In this document: in pieces, positions 50 through 13,269 of the stretch
Position numbering within the stretch: position 1 is the first letter of the stretch
Layout: each line of letters begins with the position of its first letter
Assembly (NCBI GenBank): GCA_964581305.1
Contig: CAZONC010000001.1
Span: 1-54,474, forward strand
Length of the DNA: 54,474 nt
Source: an uncultured archaeon
Lineage (GTDB): Archaea; Aenigmatarchaeota; Aenigmatarchaeia; CG10238-14; SCSR01
Direction: 5' to 3'
Notes under the pieces: generated by a model
What the model was told of the DNA's origin: nothing
Database searches by the model: none
Seen by the model: the letters and a program-made list of their open reading frames with translations, nothing else
Made by a program: the position numbers and the translations under genes

Positions 50-2371
50 ATGAAATTTAAACCTAAGTTAGAGGAAAAAAGATGGAACATAATTTTAGAA
101 AAAAAAGTGAGGGATGGTTGGATAAAAGATAAAATATACAGTTTCAATACAAAATCCAAAAAGATATTTAGTATCGATACACCTCCACCATATCCCTCTG
201 GCAGACCTTGGCATATTGGAGCGGTTGCGCATTATTCACAAATAGATATGATTGCTAGAACTGCAAGAATGAAAAAATTTGATGTATTTTTTCCTATAGG
301 AATAGATCGAAATGGCTTGCCTGTTGAGATGTACACAGAAAGATTGTATGGAATAAAAATGCATGATGTGGGAAGGGAAAAATTTATGAAACTATGCCAA
401 AATGCGCTCGATGAACTAGAAAAGGAAATGCTCGAAATAATGAAAATGGTTGGTCTATCATGCGATTTTGATAACTACTATCGAACTGATAGCAAAGAAT
501 TCAGGACGCTTACTCAAAGCACATTTATTGAGCTTTGGAAAAGAGGATTAATTTATGAGGCAACACGACCAAACAATTTTTGCCCAATATGCAAAACTAC
601 AATAGCAGATGCAGAAGTTGTTTATGAAGAAATGCCAACACAACTTGTTTATATTAAATTCAGTGTGAAGGAGACTGGTGAAGAAATTACCATAGCCACA
701 ACAAGGCCGGAATTGTTATGTGCATGTCAAGCTGTTATAGTTAATCCAGAAGATAAAAGATATGTACATCTTCATGGTAAAAATGCTATTATTCCTATTT
801 ATGAACGTGAAGTTCCTATTATCCCACACCCATATGCTGATCCAAAATTTGGAACTGGAATAGTAATGATTTGTAGTTATGGTGATTATTCCGATGTTCG
901 ACTTTTCAGAGAGCTCAAACTTAAGGAAATAATTGCAATCAATGAAGAAGGCAAAATGACAGAAGCAGCCGGTCCTTATGCAGGACTATCAATTGAAGAT
1001 GCAAGAAAAAAAATTATTGCTGATCTTAGTGAGCGCGAACTTATAGAAAAAAAGGAAACAATAACTCATAATATACCAACATGCGAAAGAAGTGGAAATG
1101 CAATAGAAATTATTCCTATGAAAGAATTTTATCTTAAACAATTAGAATTTATACCAACAATGAAAAAAATTGCGAAAAAAATAACTTTCTTTCCGGAGCA
1201 GCATCGCCAACTTCTTATTGATTGGATAAACTCGGTTACAATCGACTGGCCAATTTCACGAAGACGATTTTATGGAACAGAAATTCCAATCTGGTATTGC
1301 AAAAAATGTGGAAATATAAATTTACCTGAGCCAGGCAACTATTATCAACCGTGGCGAGAGAAACCACCATTTAAATGTCAAACGTGTGGTGGAAATGATT
1401 TTGTAGGTGAGGAAAGAACGTTTGATACGTGGATGGATTCGTCCATAACACCACTATTTATTTCCAAATATTATAAAGATAAGAAATTCTTTAGAAAAAT
1501 ATTTCCGAATACCATTAGACCACAAGGAAAAGAAATCGTCCGCACATGGTTATATTATACACTACTTAGATGTTATCAGTTAACAAAAAAACCTGCTTTT
1601 AAATATGTATGGATAAGTGGTCTTGGTTTAGATGAAAAAGGAGAAAAGATGTCAAAAAGTAAGGGGAATGTAATTGATGTGGTACCGATACTTAAAAAAT
1701 ATGGTGCAGATTGTTTTCGATTTTGGAATGCCGCAGAAGCATCACTCGGCTCTGATTTTAGATGTTCTGAACAACGAATAGCTGGTGCAGCAAAGTTTTT
1801 AACAAAATTGTGGAATGTTGCACGATTTGTTTCTTCATTTCCTCAACCGAAAAATGCTAAGCTAACAACAACCGATAAATGGATTTTGGCGGAATTGAGT
1901 AAACTTATCGATGAATGCTTGACAGGATATAATAACTTTAATTTTTTCATTCCCGCAAATAGAATAAGAGAATTTGTTTGGAATTTATTTGCGCCACACT
2001 ATATTGAAATGGTAAAAGCTAGAGCATATGGGAAAGGTTCTAAAAATGAACAACGCTCGGCATGGTTTACACTACACACATGCCTAAAAAATATTTTGCT
2101 TTTGCTTGCACCCATTACACCTTTTATTACTGATTTTATATGGCAATCACTCTATAGCAAGAAATCTATCCACTTGGAGGCCTTCCCAAAAACAAAATGG
2201 AAAAATAAAAAACTATTGGCACTTACACCTTTACTTGTTAAATTTAATTCGAATATTTGGTCTATGAAAAAAGCAAAAAACATTTCTTTAACACAACCAA
2301 TAGAAGTTAAAATACCAGAGAAATTAAAGCAGTTTGAAAAAGATTTAAGAAATATGCATAACATAGTTTGA
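50..2371 (+). CDS. valS: valyl-tRNA synthetase (class I aaRS)
   Basis: 773-aa ORF. HIGH-region PPPYPSGRPWHIGAV followed by the archaeal ValRS-like GIDRNGLPVE. KMSKS loop (KMSKSKGN). Length and the internal editing-size insertion fit a compact ValRS rather than LeuRS or IleRS. Confidence 0.8.
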   Translation: MKFKPKLEEKRWNIILEKKVRDGWIKDKIYSFNTKSKKIFSIDTPPPYPSGRPWHIGAVAHYSQIDMIARTARMKKFDVFFPIGIDRNGLPVEMYTERLYGIKMHDVGREKFMKLCQNALDELEKEMLEIMKMVGLSCDFDNYYRTDSKEFRTLTQSTFIELWKRGLIYEATRPNNFCPICKTTIADAEVVYEEMPTQLVYIKFSVKETGEEITIATTRPELLCACQAVIVNPEDKRYVHLHGKNAIIPIYEREVPIIPHPYADPKFGTGIVMICSYGDYSDVRLFRELKLKEIIAINEEGKMTEAAGPYAGLSIEDARKKIIADLSERELIEKKETITHNIPTCERSGNAIEIIPMKEFYLKQLEFIPTMKKIAKKITFFPEQHRQLLIDWINSVTIDWPISRRRFYGTEIPIWYCKKCGNINLPEPGNYYQPWREKPPFKCQTCGGNDFVGEERTFDTWMDSSITPLFISKYYKDKKFFRKIFPNTIRPQGKEIVRTWLYYTLLRCYQLTKKPAFKYVWISGLGLDEKGEKMSKSKGNVIDVVPILKKYGADCFRFWNAAEASLGSDFRCSEQRIAGAAKFLTKLWNVARFVSSFPQPKNAKLTTTDKWILAELSKLIDECLTGYNNFNFFIPANRIREFVWNLFAPHYIEMVKARAYGKGSKNEQRSAWFTLHTCLKNILLLLAPITPFITDFIWQSLYSKKSIHLEAFPKTKWKNKKLLALTPLLVKFNSNIWSMKKAKNISLTQPIEVKIPEKLKQFEKDLRNMHNIV

Positions 2372-2380
2372 TTGATTTGA

Positions 2381-4582
2381 ATGGAAGAGGAATTACTAAA
2401 AATTAAAAAAATAGTAAAGGAACTAGAAGATGTTAGAGGTAGACATACCGAATTGGTTACAGTATATATTCCTGCAGGTGCCAATCTACAGGAAACCATA
2501 AACATGCTTCGACAGGAATATTCACTTGCGCAGAATGTTAAAGATAAAACTGTGCGAAAAAATGTTATGGCTGCTCTAGATAAAATAATTTACCATCTGC
2601 AGTTTTACAAAGTAACTCCTAAAAATGGATTGGCTGTTTTTTGTGGAAATGTCTCGAAAAAAGAAGGTGTAAGTGATATAAGGCTGTGGTCCATCGAGCC
2701 GCCAGAAAAGCTAACTACAAAAATTTACCGTTGTGATCAGGTCTTTATACTCGAACCACTCAAGGAAATGTTGACAGAAAAAGATGTTTTTGGTCTAATA
2801 GTTTTGGATGCAAACGAAGCAACCATAGGTTTACTTAGAGGAAAGGCCATTACAGTTGTGAAAAAGTTGGAATCAACTGTTCCAGCAAAAACAGTAAAGG
2901 GAGGTATGTGTGTCAGCGAAGATACACTAATCCAGTTAGAGGATGGTAACATTATACCGATAAAAGATCTTACCAATAATAAAAAAATTCTTTCATATTC
3001 TTTCGAAAAGTTTGAGCCAGTTTTTACAGATTCATTTGAAATTTTTAAAAAAAAGGTTAAAAAAAGTTATAAACTGATTTTTGAAGAGCCTTCAACAACA
3101 TTAACACTTACGCCAGAGCATTTGGTTTTTGTTATTAGTAAAAATGGTATAGAAGAAAAGGCTGTGGAAAAAATAAATGTAGGCGATATGCTGCTATTTC
3201 TTCATACAGTATGTCCAAAATGTAAAGACGATTCGACAATTAGTAGTGTTTTATCACAACTGCTAGGTTATTTTCTTGGTGGCGGAACGATTGATGGTAA
3301 TAGAGTAATATTTTATAATAAAGATTTGCAACTTTTAGATGTCTATAAAAAACTTGCTGAAAAAGTAAGCGGTAAAAAAACAGTAATTTATAAAAAAGGT
3401 GGTTCTTACGAATTAAGACTTTATAAAAAATCTTTTGTCGACTTTCTATTGACTAATTTTCCAAAAATTTCAAAACCGCGAAGAGAAAAAGATATAGATG
3501 AAAAAATATTGCATTTACCAAAAAATAAACTAAAACATTTTATTAGAGGGTTATTTGATGCTAAGGGATATGTTGATCAAGCAGGAATAGTCCTAAGAAT
3601 GACTAATGAAAATATCATGAAAAAGCTTCAGCTACTTTTAACGCGTTTTGGTATAGCATCAAGCTTGAGTGGCCCAGATAAATTTGACCGATATGAATTG
3701 CGGATTACAAATGTTTTGTATATCAGCAAATTCAAAAAAGAAATTGGATTTTCTTCTCAGAAAAAAGCTACAAAACTTAATATGGTAATTAAAAAATATA
3801 AAAGTGGATTTGCAACTCGAGTTCCAATATCCGGAATTCGAAAATTAATAGAAAATGCAGGACTGAAAAAGGAAGATTTAAATAAGTACATAGAGAAAAT
3901 TTATGGCTCAAACCTAATTGCACTCAAAGTTAAGGAAAAAATAAAATTGACAACAAACAGTGAATTTTATGATCTGTTCGTTCCTAAATTTAATTGTTTT
4001 GTTGCAAATGGTATACTTGTGCACAATTCACAAAAAAGGTATGATCGCCTTCGTGAAGATGCGCTAAACGAATTTTTCACAAAAGTTGGTGAAACAGCTT
4101 CACAAATATTTTTGCAACAGCCAGAATTGAAAGGAATAATTATAGGTGGGCCTGGCCCAACGAAAGAAAGCTTTGCTTCTAGTGCATATCTTCATCACGA
4201 AATACAGAAAAAAGTTCTGGGTATAAAGGATGTAGGATATACAGATGAATATGGACTAAGCGAACTTGTAAAGAGATCGTCTGATCTTATAGAAAAAGCA
4301 ACTGTGGTGAAAGAGCGAGAATTGGTGGAAAAATTTCTTACAGAGCTACAGAAAGAAGGGAATGTTGTTTATGGCTTAAATGAAACTCTACAAGCACTCG
4401 AGCAAGGTGCAGTAGATACTCTTTTAATCTCCGAGGCAATGGATTTGGCCGAAATAGAAAAATTAATGGAAAAAGCAAAAAGCTATGGCACGCGAGTTGA
4501 ATTAATATCTACTGATACGCCAGAAGGTGTACAATTCAAAGAACTTGGCGGAATAGGTGGATTTTTGCGATATAAAGCCTAA
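2381..4582 (+). CDS. prf1: peptide chain release factor aRF1, interrupted by an in-frame intein
   Basis: N-terminal part has the aRF1 layout (GRHTELVTVYIP, YRCDQVF = YxCxxxF, LIVLDANEATIGLL). C-terminal part has RYDRLRED..FF, IIIGGPGPTKE and GGIGGFLRY. The 733 aa exceed an aRF1 by about 370 aa because of the insert at KGGM|C...HN|SQ. Confidence 0.9.
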   Translation: MEEELLKIKKIVKELEDVRGRHTELVTVYIPAGANLQETINMLRQEYSLAQNVKDKTVRKNVMAALDKIIYHLQFYKVTPKNGLAVFCGNVSKKEGVSDIRLWSIEPPEKLTTKIYRCDQVFILEPLKEMLTEKDVFGLIVLDANEATIGLLRGKAITVVKKLESTVPAKTVKGGMCVSEDTLIQLEDGNIIPIKDLTNNKKILSYSFEKFEPVFTDSFEIFKKKVKKSYKLIFEEPSTTLTLTPEHLVFVISKNGIEEKAVEKINVGDMLLFLHTVCPKCKDDSTISSVLSQLLGYFLGGGTIDGNRVIFYNKDLQLLDVYKKLAEKVSGKKTVIYKKGGSYELRLYKKSFVDFLLTNFPKISKPRREKDIDEKILHLPKNKLKHFIRGLFDAKGYVDQAGIVLRMTNENIMKKLQLLLTRFGIASSLSGPDKFDRYELRITNVLYISKFKKEIGFSSQKKATKLNMVIKKYKSGFATRVPISGIRKLIENAGLKKEDLNKYIEKIYGSNLIALKVKEKIKLTTNSEFYDLFVPKFNCFVANGILVHNSQKRYDRLREDALNEFFTKVGETASQIFLQQPELKGIIIGGPGPTKESFASSAYLHHEIQKKVLGIKDVGYTDEYGLSELVKRSSDLIEKATVVKERELVEKFLTELQKEGNVVYGLNETLQALEQGAVDTLLISEAMDLAEIEKLMEKAKSYGTRVELISTDTPEGVQFKELGGIGGFLRYKA
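2909..4027 (+). mobile_element. class 1 intein with LAGLIDADG homing-endonuclease domain (373 aa) inside aRF1
   Basis: Starts with Cys (CVSEDTLIQLEDG, block A). Block B is TLTPEHLVFV. Two LAGLIDADG-like helices (LLGYFLGGGTIDG, FIRGLFDAKGYV). Ends FVANGILVHN followed by +1 Ser. The insert is 1119 nt and in frame. Confidence 0.85.
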
Positions 4583-12540: not shown

Positions 12541-13269
12541 ATGGAAAAAATATTGGGAAAAAGATCTTTTGTGAATTTTATTTTAGAATTAGAAAAAGAA
12601 AGAAGTGATGCATATGATATGATCTCTGCGTATATTACAAACCTATCTACAATTGATAAACTGAATGTAGAAACAGAGGTTAAGGAAAAAATAATTGAAC
12701 AATTTAAAAAAAGCGCATTTGGAATAGTACTTTTTTACTGGGAAAGAGGAGGAAAAAAAATAATAATATTTCCACCATTTCCACTTTTAAGAGAAGAGAT
12801 TTTTTATAGAAACACATTTGTTACGGAGCAGATAAGAGAAATTCTAACGAAAAAACATGTAATTGGTGTAATATTATTACACATAGGACAATATGCTGTT
12901 GGAATTTTTGAAAATGAAAAATTAATAAGTTCGAAATGTGGCAAACATTTTGTGCTGAGAAGACAGAAAAAGGGCGGTTCAAGTGCTAGAAGATTTCAAA
13001 GAATAAGAGAAAAGCAAATAGAAAGTTTTTTTAATGAAGTTTATGATGTAGTAAAAGAAAAGTTCGGTCCGCATATAGATAAAATAAACTATATTATATT
13101 TGGTGGGCCAAAATTAACTATTAAGAAGTTTCAGCAAAGGAATCATTTTATGAAAAAAATTATGGAGAAAACACTTAAAAAAAATATTGTTATAAGAGAA
13201 GCAAATAGAGAAAATTTGGAAAAAAGTTTGGCAGAAATATGGAAAACGAGGATTTGTGAATTGATATGA
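12541..13269 (+). CDS. eRF1-middle-domain paralog (Vms1/ANKZF1-like, VLRF1-type putative peptidyl-tRNA hydrolase)
   Basis: IGVILLHIGQYAVGIF...RRQKKGGSSARRFQRIREKQIESFFNEV...IIFGGPKLT runs parallel to the aRF1 M domain in this same window (LIVLDANEATIGLL...KTVKGGM/SQKRYDRLREDALNEFFTKV...IIIGGPGPT). It has no aRF1 N (codon-reading) domain. Confidence 0.65.
   Translation: MEKILGKRSFVNFILELEKERSDAYDMISAYITNLSTIDKLNVETEVKEKIIEQFKKSAFGIVLFYWERGGKKIIIFPPFPLLREEIFYRNTFVTEQIREILTKKHVIGVILLHIGQYAVGIFENEKLISSKCGKHFVLRRQKKGGSSARRFQRIREKQIESFFNEVYDVVKEKFGPHIDKINYIIFGGPKLTIKKFQQRNHFMKKIMEKTLKKNIVIREANRENLEKSLAEIWKTRICELI

What the first reader, a model, noticed from the sequence alone, without database searches (positions are those of the whole stretch)
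2909..4027. LAGLIDADG intein inserted exactly in the catalytic GGQ loop of aRF1
The aRF1 ORF is about 370 aa too long. The extra 373 aa start with Cys immediately after ...PAKTVKGGM and carry a TxxH block (TLTPEHLVF) and two LAGLIDADG-type helices. They end ...FVANGILVHN followed by Ser, which is the class 1 intein signature. Inteins typically sit in the most conserved catalytic sites of essential proteins. I do not recall the peptidyl-tRNA hydrolysis loop of a release factor as a standard intein site. Translation termination in this organism would then depend on protein splicing.
Basis: partly seen in the sequence, partly recalled or inferred. Interest (0 to 1): 0.6.

Follow-up and report, generated by a model that had tools for sequence, protein, structure and literature searches.

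The report
Intein in a glutamine-less release factor
The only translation-termination factor gene (aRF1) of this tiny DPANN archaeon is split at its catalytic loop by a real self-splicing intein whose homing nuclease has decayed; this intein site is common in DPANN archaea, and the loop reads Gly-Gly-Met instead of the "universal" Gly-Gly-Gln.

Summary
ORF 2381..4582 (733 aa) is an aRF1 precursor with a 373-aa class-1 intein at 2909..4027: Cys1, a TPEH block B, ...VHN at the end, and Ser+1. Pfam and NCBIfam intein models match, and the spliced exteins score 436 bits as aRF1.

1. The loop is GGM, not GGQ. Intein-free relatives read GGMSQ too. In 118 Aenigmatarchaeota genomes the third residue is Q 46, W 41, M 27, Y 2, F 1, A 1. 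Loss of Gln goes with absence of the Gln-methyltransferase Mtq2: 42/46 Q genomes have it, against 1/72 non-Q genomes.
2. The site is not exotic. 113 of the 120 best database homologs, and 20 of the 118 genomes, carry an intein at exactly this junction, in Q, M and W contexts. The scatter needs about 17 gains or losses. I found no paper describing it.
3. This copy's LAGLIDADG nuclease has lost both catalytic acidic residues (D→G, E→K) and about 36 aa, while the splicing residues are intact.

It is the only intein and the only true aRF1 in a 430-kb genome that uses all three stop codons. Termination should therefore depend on splicing; this is inferred, not shown. The intein is an ordinary kind in an undescribed host site. 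The Gln-less loop is the real surprise.

The parts
2381..4582 (+). aRF1 precursor ORF (733 aa, 83.1 kDa), stop codon included
   Evidence: TIGR03676 409 bits with the intein in place and 436 bits when spliced; Pfam eRF1_1/2/3; AF2 model mean pLDDT 84.6, best PDB fold match aRF1 4af1
2381..2908 (+). N-extein (176 aa): aRF1 domain 1 (NVKD in place of NIKS; YRCDQVF) and first half of domain 2, ending ...TVKGGM
   Evidence: TIGR03676 positions 3-172
2900..2908 (+). GGA GGT ATG = Gly-Gly-Met, aligned to the GGQ of solved aRF1/eRF1 structures; Met176 is the intein -1 residue
   Evidence: GGM also in intein-free relatives
2909..4027 (+). Class-1 intein, 373 aa (42.7 kDa): Hint splicing domain with an inserted LAGLIDADG endonuclease domain; G+C 0.291 against 0.362 and 0.378 in the exteins
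2909..2911 (+). Cys1 (block A nucleophile)
   Evidence: Cys in 52/52 aligned aRF1 inteins
3110..3121 (+). Block B Thr-Pro-Glu-His (TxxH)
   Evidence: His invariant in 52/52, Thr/Ser in 52/52
3260..3286 (+). LAGLIDADG motif 1, LLGYFLGGG; the catalytic Asp is replaced by Gly (GGC at 3281-3283)
   Evidence: Asp in 47/52 aRF1 inteins; aligned to the IADG Asp of the TliVMA intein; alignment
3542..3568 (+). LAGLIDADG motif 2, IRGLFDAKG; the catalytic Glu/Asp is replaced by Lys (AAG at 3563-3565)
   Evidence: Glu/Asp in 49/52; aligned to the VCDG Asp of the TliVMA intein; alignment
3790..3915 (+). Region after the endonuclease core where this intein lacks about 36 aa that the 409-aa relatives have; low model confidence here (pLDDT 55-64). 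The coordinates are approximate.
4013..4027 (+). Block G Ile-Leu-Val-His-Asn: penultimate His and terminal Asn
   Evidence: His and Asn in 52/52; TIGR01443
4028..4582 (+). C-extein (184 aa plus stop) beginning with Ser+1 and Gln+2 (SQKRYDRLRE...): rest of domain 2 and domain 3, without the Cys4 mini-domain of relatives

Best explanation
The gene encodes the organism's only class-I release factor, aRF1, as an 83-kDa precursor. The precursor is interrupted by a 373-aa class-1 intein placed between Met176 (third residue of the GGQ-equivalent tripeptide, here GGM) and Ser550.

Inferred mechanism is the canonical four-step splicing pathway:
1. N-S acyl shift at Met176-Cys177.
2. Trans-esterification onto the Ser550 hydroxyl.
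3. Cyclisation of Asn549, assisted by His548.
4. O-N shift, giving a 40.4-kDa aRF1 with the loop ...KGGM-SQKRYDRL... and a free 42.7-kDa intein.

The insert sits at the tip of domain 2, which must reach the peptidyl-transferase centre, so the unspliced precursor should be inactive and termination should depend on splicing.

The intein belongs to a family that occupies this same junction sporadically across DPANN archaea and was evidently spread by homing. In this genome its LAGLIDADG endonuclease has lost both metal-binding acidic residues (Asp to Gly, Glu to Lys) and about 36 aa. It is therefore now an immobile passenger kept only by the need to splice precisely.

The GGM loop belongs to the host lineage and was not caused by the intein.

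Shown: sequence anatomy, family membership, distribution, and the residue substitutions. Inferred: that splicing occurs, that the endonuclease is dead, and that the precursor is inactive.
For: Boundaries and splice residues were read from the DNA. The spliced extein scores higher on the aRF1 model than the precursor (436 against 409 bits) and aligns colinearly across the junction to 4af1 and 3agk.

Cys1, block-B His, the His-Asn end and Ser+1 are invariant in 52/52 aligned aRF1 inteins, this one included.

The AF2 model has pLDDT 84.6. Foldseek finds aRF1 4af1 (2e-24) and the homing-endonuclease inteins TliVMA 7qss/7qsu (1e-22, TM 0.64-0.73), PI-PfuI 1dq3 (1e-20) and PI-SceI.

The junction is the same in 113 of the 120 best homologs, with intein sizes from 135 to 573 aa. 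It is also the same in 20 of 118 Aenigmatarchaeota genomes. On the aRF1 tree this needs 17 gains or losses, and the three nearest relatives of this genome are intein-free.

Intein and extein similarities disagree: P0034 has extein 73% and intein 37%, while P0002 has extein 66% and intein 72%.

The catalytic Asp (47/52) and Glu/Asp (49/52) of the endonuclease are Gly and Lys here, and the intein is 373 aa against 409 aa in relatives. The same positions align to the catalytic Asp residues of the TliVMA intein.

The genome has one aRF1 locus and one intein. All three stop codons terminate long ORFs: TAA 213, TGA 96, TAG 72.
Against: The endonuclease core is not more diverged than in relatives (0.64 against 0.65 identity). 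The inactivation is therefore recent, or the domain is still under some constraint, and a residual or altered activity cannot be excluded.

The genome is a 90.6%-complete MAG, so a second release factor on missing DNA is not strictly excluded.

Whether a GGM aRF1 hydrolyses peptidyl-tRNA has never been tested.
Confidence: 0.85

Rival explanations
1. Domesticated, conditional intein. The endonuclease-dead intein is retained because splicing at the catalytic loop acts as a post-translational gate (redox, temperature or other) on the supply of active release factor.
For: It is the only intein in a strongly reduced 430-kb genome and sits in the single aRF1. Its endonuclease is inactivated while the splicing residues are intact. 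The endonuclease core is still as conserved as in relatives. This copy has extra cysteines that relatives lack: a CPKC at 3212-3223 and a Cys in block F, NCFVANG.
Against: The distribution is sporadic, with 17 gains or losses among 118 genomes, and the nearest relatives are intein-free. That is the pattern of a selfish element, not of a conserved regulator. No evidence of conditional splicing exists. An immobile intein cannot be lost without a precise deletion, which explains its retention without invoking any function.
Confidence: 0.08
2. The intein is still a mobile element with a working homing endonuclease that uses non-canonical catalytic residues.
For: Both LAGLIDADG helices and the overall endonuclease fold are retained with high model confidence. 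The endonuclease core is not more diverged than in relatives.
Against: Both acidic metal-ligand positions are non-acidic (Gly and Lys), whereas 47-49 of 52 relatives keep Asp or Glu. About 36 aa are missing. From established knowledge of LAGLIDADG enzymes (PI-SceI Asp218/Asp326, I-CreI Asp20), loss of these residues abolishes cleavage.
Confidence: 0.07
3. Splicing-incompetent insertion. The gene is a decaying or non-functional aRF1, and termination is carried out by something else.
For: The loop lacks the canonical Gln. A second eRF1-fold protein (VLRF1-like) is encoded at 12541..13269.
Against: All splice-site residues are intact. The ORF is open over 2.2 kb. The exteins are 73-74% identical to intein-free aRF1 of relatives, with all invariant aRF1 positions kept. 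GGM is fixed in all 27 genomes of the sample that carry Met, which are mostly intein-free. The VLRF1-like protein has no stop-codon recognition domain and reads GGSS. No other aRF1 hit exists in the genome.
Confidence: 0.04
4. Assembly or binning artefact that joins an intein from another organism into the aRF1 gene.
For: The intein has lower G+C (0.291) than the exteins (0.362 and 0.378).
Against: The junctions are in frame at exactly the site used by more than 100 independent assemblies. Lower G+C is usual for mobile or less constrained sequence. The contig is 54 kb and colinear with neighbouring housekeeping genes.
Confidence: 0.01

Closest known systems
Homing-endonuclease-associated archaeal inteins with solved structures: TliVMA and PhoVMA (PDB 7qss, 7qsu, 7qst), PI-PfuI (1dq3), PI-SceI (1vde, 1lws)
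   Same: Class-1 splicing residues (Cys1, TxxH, His-Asn, +1 nucleophile). Hint domain with an inserted two-motif LAGLIDADG domain. Fold match at E 1e-20 to 1e-22 with TM up to 0.73. Sequence match 5e-7.
   Different: The host protein and site differ (aRF1 catalytic loop instead of V-ATPase A, RNR or polymerase). Sequence identity is only about 18-20%. Both catalytic acidic residues of the endonuclease are replaced (Gly, Lys), and there is a 36-aa deletion relative to its own family.
aRF1 'GGQ-site' inteins in DPANN metagenome assemblies (Aenigmatarchaeota, Woesearchaeota, Pacearchaeota, Nanoarchaeota; database entries such as P0002-P0062, some labelled by JGI 'eRF1/intein/homing endonuclease')
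   Same: Identical insertion point GG[Q/M/W]|C...HN|S. The closest members (409 aa) are 60-72% identical to this intein.
   Different: This copy is 36 aa shorter and is one of only 2-3 of 52 that lack each catalytic acidic residue. The family also includes mini-inteins (135-161 aa) and larger forms of 474-573 aa, many of which carry an extra HTH domain (PF01381). No publication was found for the family.
Canonical aRF1/eRF1 (TIGR03676; PDB 4af1, 3agk, 1dt9)
   Same: Three-domain architecture. YxCxxxF motif (YRCDQVF). The Gly-Gly of the catalytic loop and the following S..RY.RLR helix. The spliced form scores 436 bits.
   Different: Gln of GGQ is Met. NIKS is NVKD. The domain-3 Cys4 mini-domain is absent (as in Aeropyrum aRF1 3agk). 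The gene is interrupted by an intein.
aVLRF-1/acVLRF-1 release-factor-like hydrolases with a GGxSQ loop (Burroughs & Aravind 2019, PMC6514570)
   Same: The spliced loop GGMSQ fits the GGxSQ pattern. Gln at +2 accompanies 65 of 72 non-Q aRF1 but only 4 of 46 GGQ aRF1.
   Different: The aRF1 here keeps the codon-recognition domain and the canonical loop length. Seven of the 72 non-Q aRF1 lack Gln at +2, so a shifted catalytic Gln is not a general rule.

Membership tests
Class-1 intein (Hint superfamily) | Cys/Ser/Thr nucleophile as first residue (block A) | tested here: met
   TGT at 2909-2911; Cys in 52/52 family members; TIGR01445 5e-7
Class-1 intein (Hint superfamily) | Block B TxxH | tested here: met
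   TPEH at 3110-3121; His in 52/52
Class-1 intein (Hint superfamily) | C-terminal His-Asn followed by a Ser/Thr/Cys +1 extein residue (block G) | tested here: met
   CAC AAT | TCA at 4022-4030; 52/52; TIGR01443
Class-1 intein (Hint superfamily) | Hint fold | tested here: met
   Pfam Intein_splicing 62.8 bits and Hint 32.3 bits, both over their cut-offs; Foldseek hits to solved inteins at E 1e-20 to 1e-22
Class-1 intein (Hint superfamily) | Removal restores a colinear, conserved host protein | tested here: met
   Spliced extein scores 436 bits on TIGR03676 and aligns without a gap to 4af1 and 3agk; intein-free alleles exist in relatives
Class-1 intein (Hint superfamily) | Protein splicing actually occurs | not testable with these tools
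LAGLIDADG homing endonuclease (two-motif, intein-borne) | Two LAGLIDADG helices in an alpha-beta-beta-alpha-beta-beta-alpha pair of domains | tested here: met
   PF14528 LAGLIDADG_3 2e-19, two stretches; motifs at 3260-3286 and 3542-3568; fold match to PI-PfuI and TliVMA
LAGLIDADG homing endonuclease (two-motif, intein-borne) | Acidic metal-binding residue at the end of each LAGLIDADG motif (needed for DNA cleavage) | tested here: not met
   Gly301 and Lys395 where 47/52 and 49/52 relatives have Asp/Glu; these align to the Asp residues of TliVMA. It is therefore a structural member of the family but probably not an active endonuclease.
aRF1/eRF1 class-I release factor | Domains eRF1_1, eRF1_2 and eRF1_3 with a score over the TIGR03676 cut-off | tested here: met
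   (436 bits against a 234.7 cut-off)
aRF1/eRF1 class-I release factor | Stop-codon recognition motifs (NIKS-type loop, YxCxxxF) | tested here: met
   QNVKDK (a variant of NIKS; relatives have NIKS or NVKD) and YRCDQVF
aRF1/eRF1 class-I release factor | Invariant Gly-Gly-Gln catalytic tripeptide | tested here: not met
   GGM. This is fixed in the lineage: all 24 genomes of the same family have Met (22) or Tyr (2). The protein is clearly the aRF1 orthologue by every other criterion; the 'invariant' feature is what fails.
aRF1/eRF1 class-I release factor | Peptidyl-tRNA hydrolysis activity at all three stop codons | not testable with these tools
   Only indirect evidence: a single aRF1 locus, and TAA, TGA and TAG all end long ORFs

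The most novel reading that the evidence does not exclude
The 'universally conserved' catalytic Gln of class-I release factors is dispensable in nature. Most Aenigmatarchaeota (72 of 118 sampled genomes) terminate translation with GGM, GGW, GGY, GGF or GGA aRF1 as their only release factor. The substitution travels with loss of the Gln-N5 methyltransferase Mtq2. This suggests that a hydrophobic side chain (Met is close in shape to N5-methyl-Gln) replaces the methylated Gln, and/or that the Gln now found two residues downstream (GGxSQ, as in VLRF1 hydrolases) takes over. The intein in this window then splits the motif between the two candidate functional residues: Met at -1 and Gln at +2.
Probability: 0.6. 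Interest if true: 0.8.

Novelty: new member of a known kind. Interest (0 to 1): 0.55.

Why it matters
For intein biology, this adds a translation-termination factor, at its catalytic loop, to the list of intein host sites. It also shows a whole family (mini, LAGLIDADG and LAGLIDADG+HTH forms) cycling through one junction across DPANN archaea. This window gives a clear example of the late stage of the homing cycle: the endonuclease is dead and splicing is preserved, in an essential single-copy gene of a 430-kb genome.

For translation, the host loop is the more important point. GGQ is described as universal, and Mtq2 as present in all archaea (PMC6144793). Here both statements fail together in a large clade. 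This is a natural experiment on what the Gln side chain and its methylation are for. It fits the view that the backbone amide, not the side chain, does the catalysis (PMC6742477).

In practical terms, annotation pipelines mislabel many of these precursors as 'LAGLIDADG endonuclease', 'HTH domain protein' or 'Dom34'.

Tried and rejected

2. Literature: four searches for an aRF1/eRF1 intein or a GGQ variant in DPANN found nothing relevant. Shaw & Green 2007 (PMC2175178), wanted for Gln-mutant kinetics, is not held. Statements about Gln mutants therefore rest on PMC6742477 and on my own knowledge.

3. Phylogenetically corrected test of the Q-to-Mtq2 link: on the aRF1 tree only 1-4 independent Q/non-Q transitions exist, so the independent-pairs sign test has no power. 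The raw Fisher p of 4e-26 must not be read as independent evidence.

4. Independent replicate in Nanoarchaeia/Woesearchaeota with GGF (L024, L075, L078): the result is ambiguous. One genome has no Mtq2 and two have a borderline hit of 86-87 bits.

5. 'Shifted catalytic Gln' as the sole explanation was rejected as a general rule. Seven of 72 non-Q aRF1 have no Gln at +2: five SAN, one SAS and one SAR.

6. Relaxed selection on the endonuclease core was not seen: 0.64 against 0.65 identity.

7. The second eRF1-like hits in the genome were considered as alternative release factors and rejected. C1:12757-13179 is a VLRF1-like protein without a codon-recognition domain. C5:15236-15382 is a 23-bit match to the domain-3 part of the model only.
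Full report
**1. The observation**

The window has one long ORF at 2381..4582 (+), 733 aa. It lies between a valyl-tRNA synthetase gene (50..2371) and a convergent TatD-like gene. Read from the DNA, the key codons are:
- GGA GGT ATG (Gly-Gly-Met) at 2900-2908.
- TGT (Cys) at 2909-2911.
- GTG CAC AAT (Val-His-Asn) at 4019-4027.
- TCA (Ser) at 4028-4030.

Profile matches confirm an intein:
- Pfam Intein_splicing 4e-17 over residues 184-549.
- Pfam Hint 9e-8.
- Pfam LAGLIDADG_3 2e-19.
- The three eRF1 domains.
- NCBIfam intein N-terminal and C-terminal models (TIGR01445, TIGR01443), plus weak matches to many intein-containing proteins.

With the insert removed, the 360-aa product scores 436 bits on TIGR03676 aRF1 (cut-off 234.7), against 409 bits with the insert. 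It aligns colinearly across the junction to the solved aRF1/eRF1 structures 4af1, 3agk and 3j5y.

An AlphaFold2 model of the precursor, built on 52 homologs, has mean pLDDT 84.6. Its best fold matches in the PDB are aRF1 4af1 (2e-24) and the homing-endonuclease inteins TliVMA 7qss/7qsu (about 1e-22, TM up to 0.73), PI-PfuI 1dq3 (1e-20) and PI-SceI.

**2. The intein**

In an alignment of 52 aRF1 inteins, Cys1, the block-B His (TPEH here, 3110-3121), the penultimate His, the terminal Asn and Ser+1 are each present in 52/52, this copy included. All residues needed for canonical class-1 splicing are therefore in place.

The endonuclease part is different:
- The acidic residue ending LAGLIDADG motif 1 is Asp in 47/52 but Gly here (LLGYFLGGG; GGC at 3281-3283).
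- The acidic residue ending motif 2 is Glu/Asp in 49/52 but Lys here (GLFDAKG; AAG at 3563-3565).
- These two positions align to the IADG and VCDG aspartates of the solved TliVMA intein.
- This copy is 373 aa, whereas its 31 closest relatives are 408-412 aa. About 36 aa are missing after the endonuclease core, and model confidence drops there.

From established knowledge of LAGLIDADG enzymes, loss of these metal ligands abolishes cleavage. The rest of the endonuclease core is no more diverged than among relatives (0.64 against 0.65 identity), so the inactivation looks recent.

The intein is AT-richer (G+C 0.291) than the exteins (0.362 and 0.378).

**3. How common the site is**

A search of about 5.8 billion proteins returned 620 hits. 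Of the 120 best, 113 carry an intein at exactly the same junction, GG[Q/M/W]|C...HN|S. These inteins range from 135-aa mini-inteins to 573-aa forms, many of the larger ones with an added HTH domain. Seven hits are intein-free 403-aa aRF1.

Source names are Aenigmatarchaeota, Woesearchaeota, Pacearchaeota and Nanoarchaeota. JGI already labels some 'eRF1/intein/homing endonuclease', while others are mislabelled as LAGLIDADG endonuclease, HTH protein or Dom34.

In an even sample of 121 genomes of the window's phylum, 20 of 118 readable aRF1 genes are split at this point, spread over 10 families. On an aRF1 tree, intein presence needs 17 changes for 20 carriers. The three nearest relatives of this genome (74% identical exteins) are intein-free.

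Intein and extein similarities are discordant. P0034 has extein 73% and intein 37%; P0002 has extein 66% and intein 72%. This is the signature of a mobile element with repeated gain, loss and replacement.

Four literature searches found no paper on an aRF1/eRF1 intein. A 2023 survey of archaeal inteins covered only two DPANN genomes.

**4. The host loop is not GGQ**

The alignment to solved structures puts Met176 opposite the Gln of GGQ: KGGmSqkRY against KGGQSAQRF. This is neither an error nor a side effect of the intein.
- All seven intein-free relatives among the top hits read GGMSQ.
- Of 80 intein-free aRF1 loci from species-representative DPANN genomes, 77 were readable: GGQ 37, GGW 23, GGM 14, GGF 3.
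- In the 118-genome phylum sample the third residue is Q 46, W 41, M 27, Y 2, F 1, A 1.
- All 24 genomes of the window's own family have Met (22) or Tyr (2).

The intein occurs in M (10), Q (6) and W (4) contexts, so it tolerates the -1 residue.

Non-Q loops are usually followed by Ser-Gln (65/72, against 4/46 for GGQ loops). This gives GGxSQ, the pattern reported for VLRF1-type hydrolases (PMC6514570). Seven non-Q loops lack that Gln.

**5. Link to the methyltransferase**

The archaeal Gln-N5 methyltransferase Mtq2 methylates the aRF1 GGQ Gln in Haloferax and is stated to occur in all archaea (PMC6144793).

In this genome no Mtq2 (TIGR00537) hit exceeds 28.9 bits (cut-off 87), and no Trm112 hit passes its cut-off. 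The four control genomes that pass the TIGR00537 cut-off correspond in number to the four archaeal controls.

Across the phylum sample, Mtq2 is over the cut-off in 42/46 GGQ genomes and in 1/72 non-Q genomes.

Caveat: on the aRF1 tree Q/non-Q needs only 1-4 changes, so these are few independent events and the contrast test has no power. The Q-bearing genomes nested among W genomes do carry Mtq2 or an 80-bit Mtq2-like hit (G007, G079, G034, G110).

A second sample showed that GGQ can persist without Mtq2 (5 of 24). It also showed that the GGF Nanoarchaeia/Woesearchaeota are ambiguous.

**6. Consequences in this organism**

- The genome (430 kb, 21 contigs, 90.6% complete) has one true aRF1 locus and one intein.
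- TAA, TGA and TAG all terminate long ORFs (213, 96 and 72), so an omnipotent release factor is needed.
- The other eRF1-fold gene (12541..13269) is VLRF1-like, lacks a codon-recognition domain and reads GGSS.

I infer three things. The precursor is inactive, because a 43-kDa insert sits at the tip that must enter the peptidyl-transferase centre. Splicing is obligatory for termination. The dead-endonuclease intein persists because only an exact deletion could remove it.

**7. Verdict**

The intein is a real, standard class-1 intein with a decayed LAGLIDADG nuclease. Its host site is abundant in DPANN databases but, as far as I could find, undescribed in the literature. It is therefore a new member of a known kind.

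The more surprising fact at these coordinates is that the 'catalytic GGQ loop' is GGM, as part of a clade-wide replacement of the 'universal' Gln that goes with loss of Mtq2.

Earlier notes of this scan report the same two phenomena in other genomes. I reached and tested them independently here. Those notes are not evidence.

Noticed in passing
window 12541-13269 (+): 242-aa stand-alone eRF1-domain-2 protein of the VLRF1 type (PF18859 3e-20). Its loop reads KKGGSSARRF, so it has neither the GGQ Gln nor the GGxSQ Gln reported for aVLRF-1. Both eRF1-fold proteins of this genome therefore lack the canonical Gln.
   Followed up: partly
window 4028-4582 (C-extein), compared with P0063 and P0111: This aRF1 (360 aa spliced) lacks the roughly 43-aa Cys4 (CxxC...CxxC) mini-domain of domain 3 that most relatives (403 aa) have. 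Some relatives (P0012, G014, G048, G050) also lack it, as does Aeropyrum aRF1 (3agk).
   Followed up: partly
whole genome G000: 430 kb in 21 contigs at 90.6% estimated completeness, G+C 0.332. This is the smallest of the 121 Aenigmatarchaeota genomes sampled; the others are listed at about 0.5-1.9 Mb (sizes rounded).
   Followed up: no
window 3212-3223 and about 3992-3994: This intein has a CPKC motif and a Cys in block F (NCFVANG) where its closest relatives have no Cys (…EPKSND…, NSFVANG). A possible redox sensitivity of splicing is pure speculation.
   Followed up: no
loci L024, L075, L078 (Woesearchaeota/Nanoarchaeia genomes): Intein-free aRF1 with GGFSQQRY. This suggests that loss of the GGQ Gln also occurred outside Aenigmatarchaeota. 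Mtq2 status there is ambiguous (none, 86.3 bits, 87.4 bits).
   Followed up: partly
genomes G041 and G067, loci L029 and L062: aRF1 with GGQSQMRYQR (or GGQSAQ in G067) but no Mtq2 hit. These are possible intermediates in which the methyltransferase was lost before the Gln.
   Followed up: no
G135:C4:67979-68506: An Mtq2 match of 112 bits contains an in-frame TAA. It may be a pseudogene or a sequencing error in a GGQ-bearing DPANN genome.
   Followed up: no
proteins P0031, P0038, P0048-P0056 and others: Larger aRF1 inteins (474-573 aa), many of which carry an XRE-type HTH domain (PF01381) in addition to the LAGLIDADG domain. Several of these precursors are annotated only as 'helix-turn-helix domain-containing protein'.
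   Followed up: no
G000:C5:23759-24157 (-): Weak (13.9 bits, E 0.007) partial Intein_splicing match inside a 390-aa ORF. It is probably not an intein.
   Followed up: no
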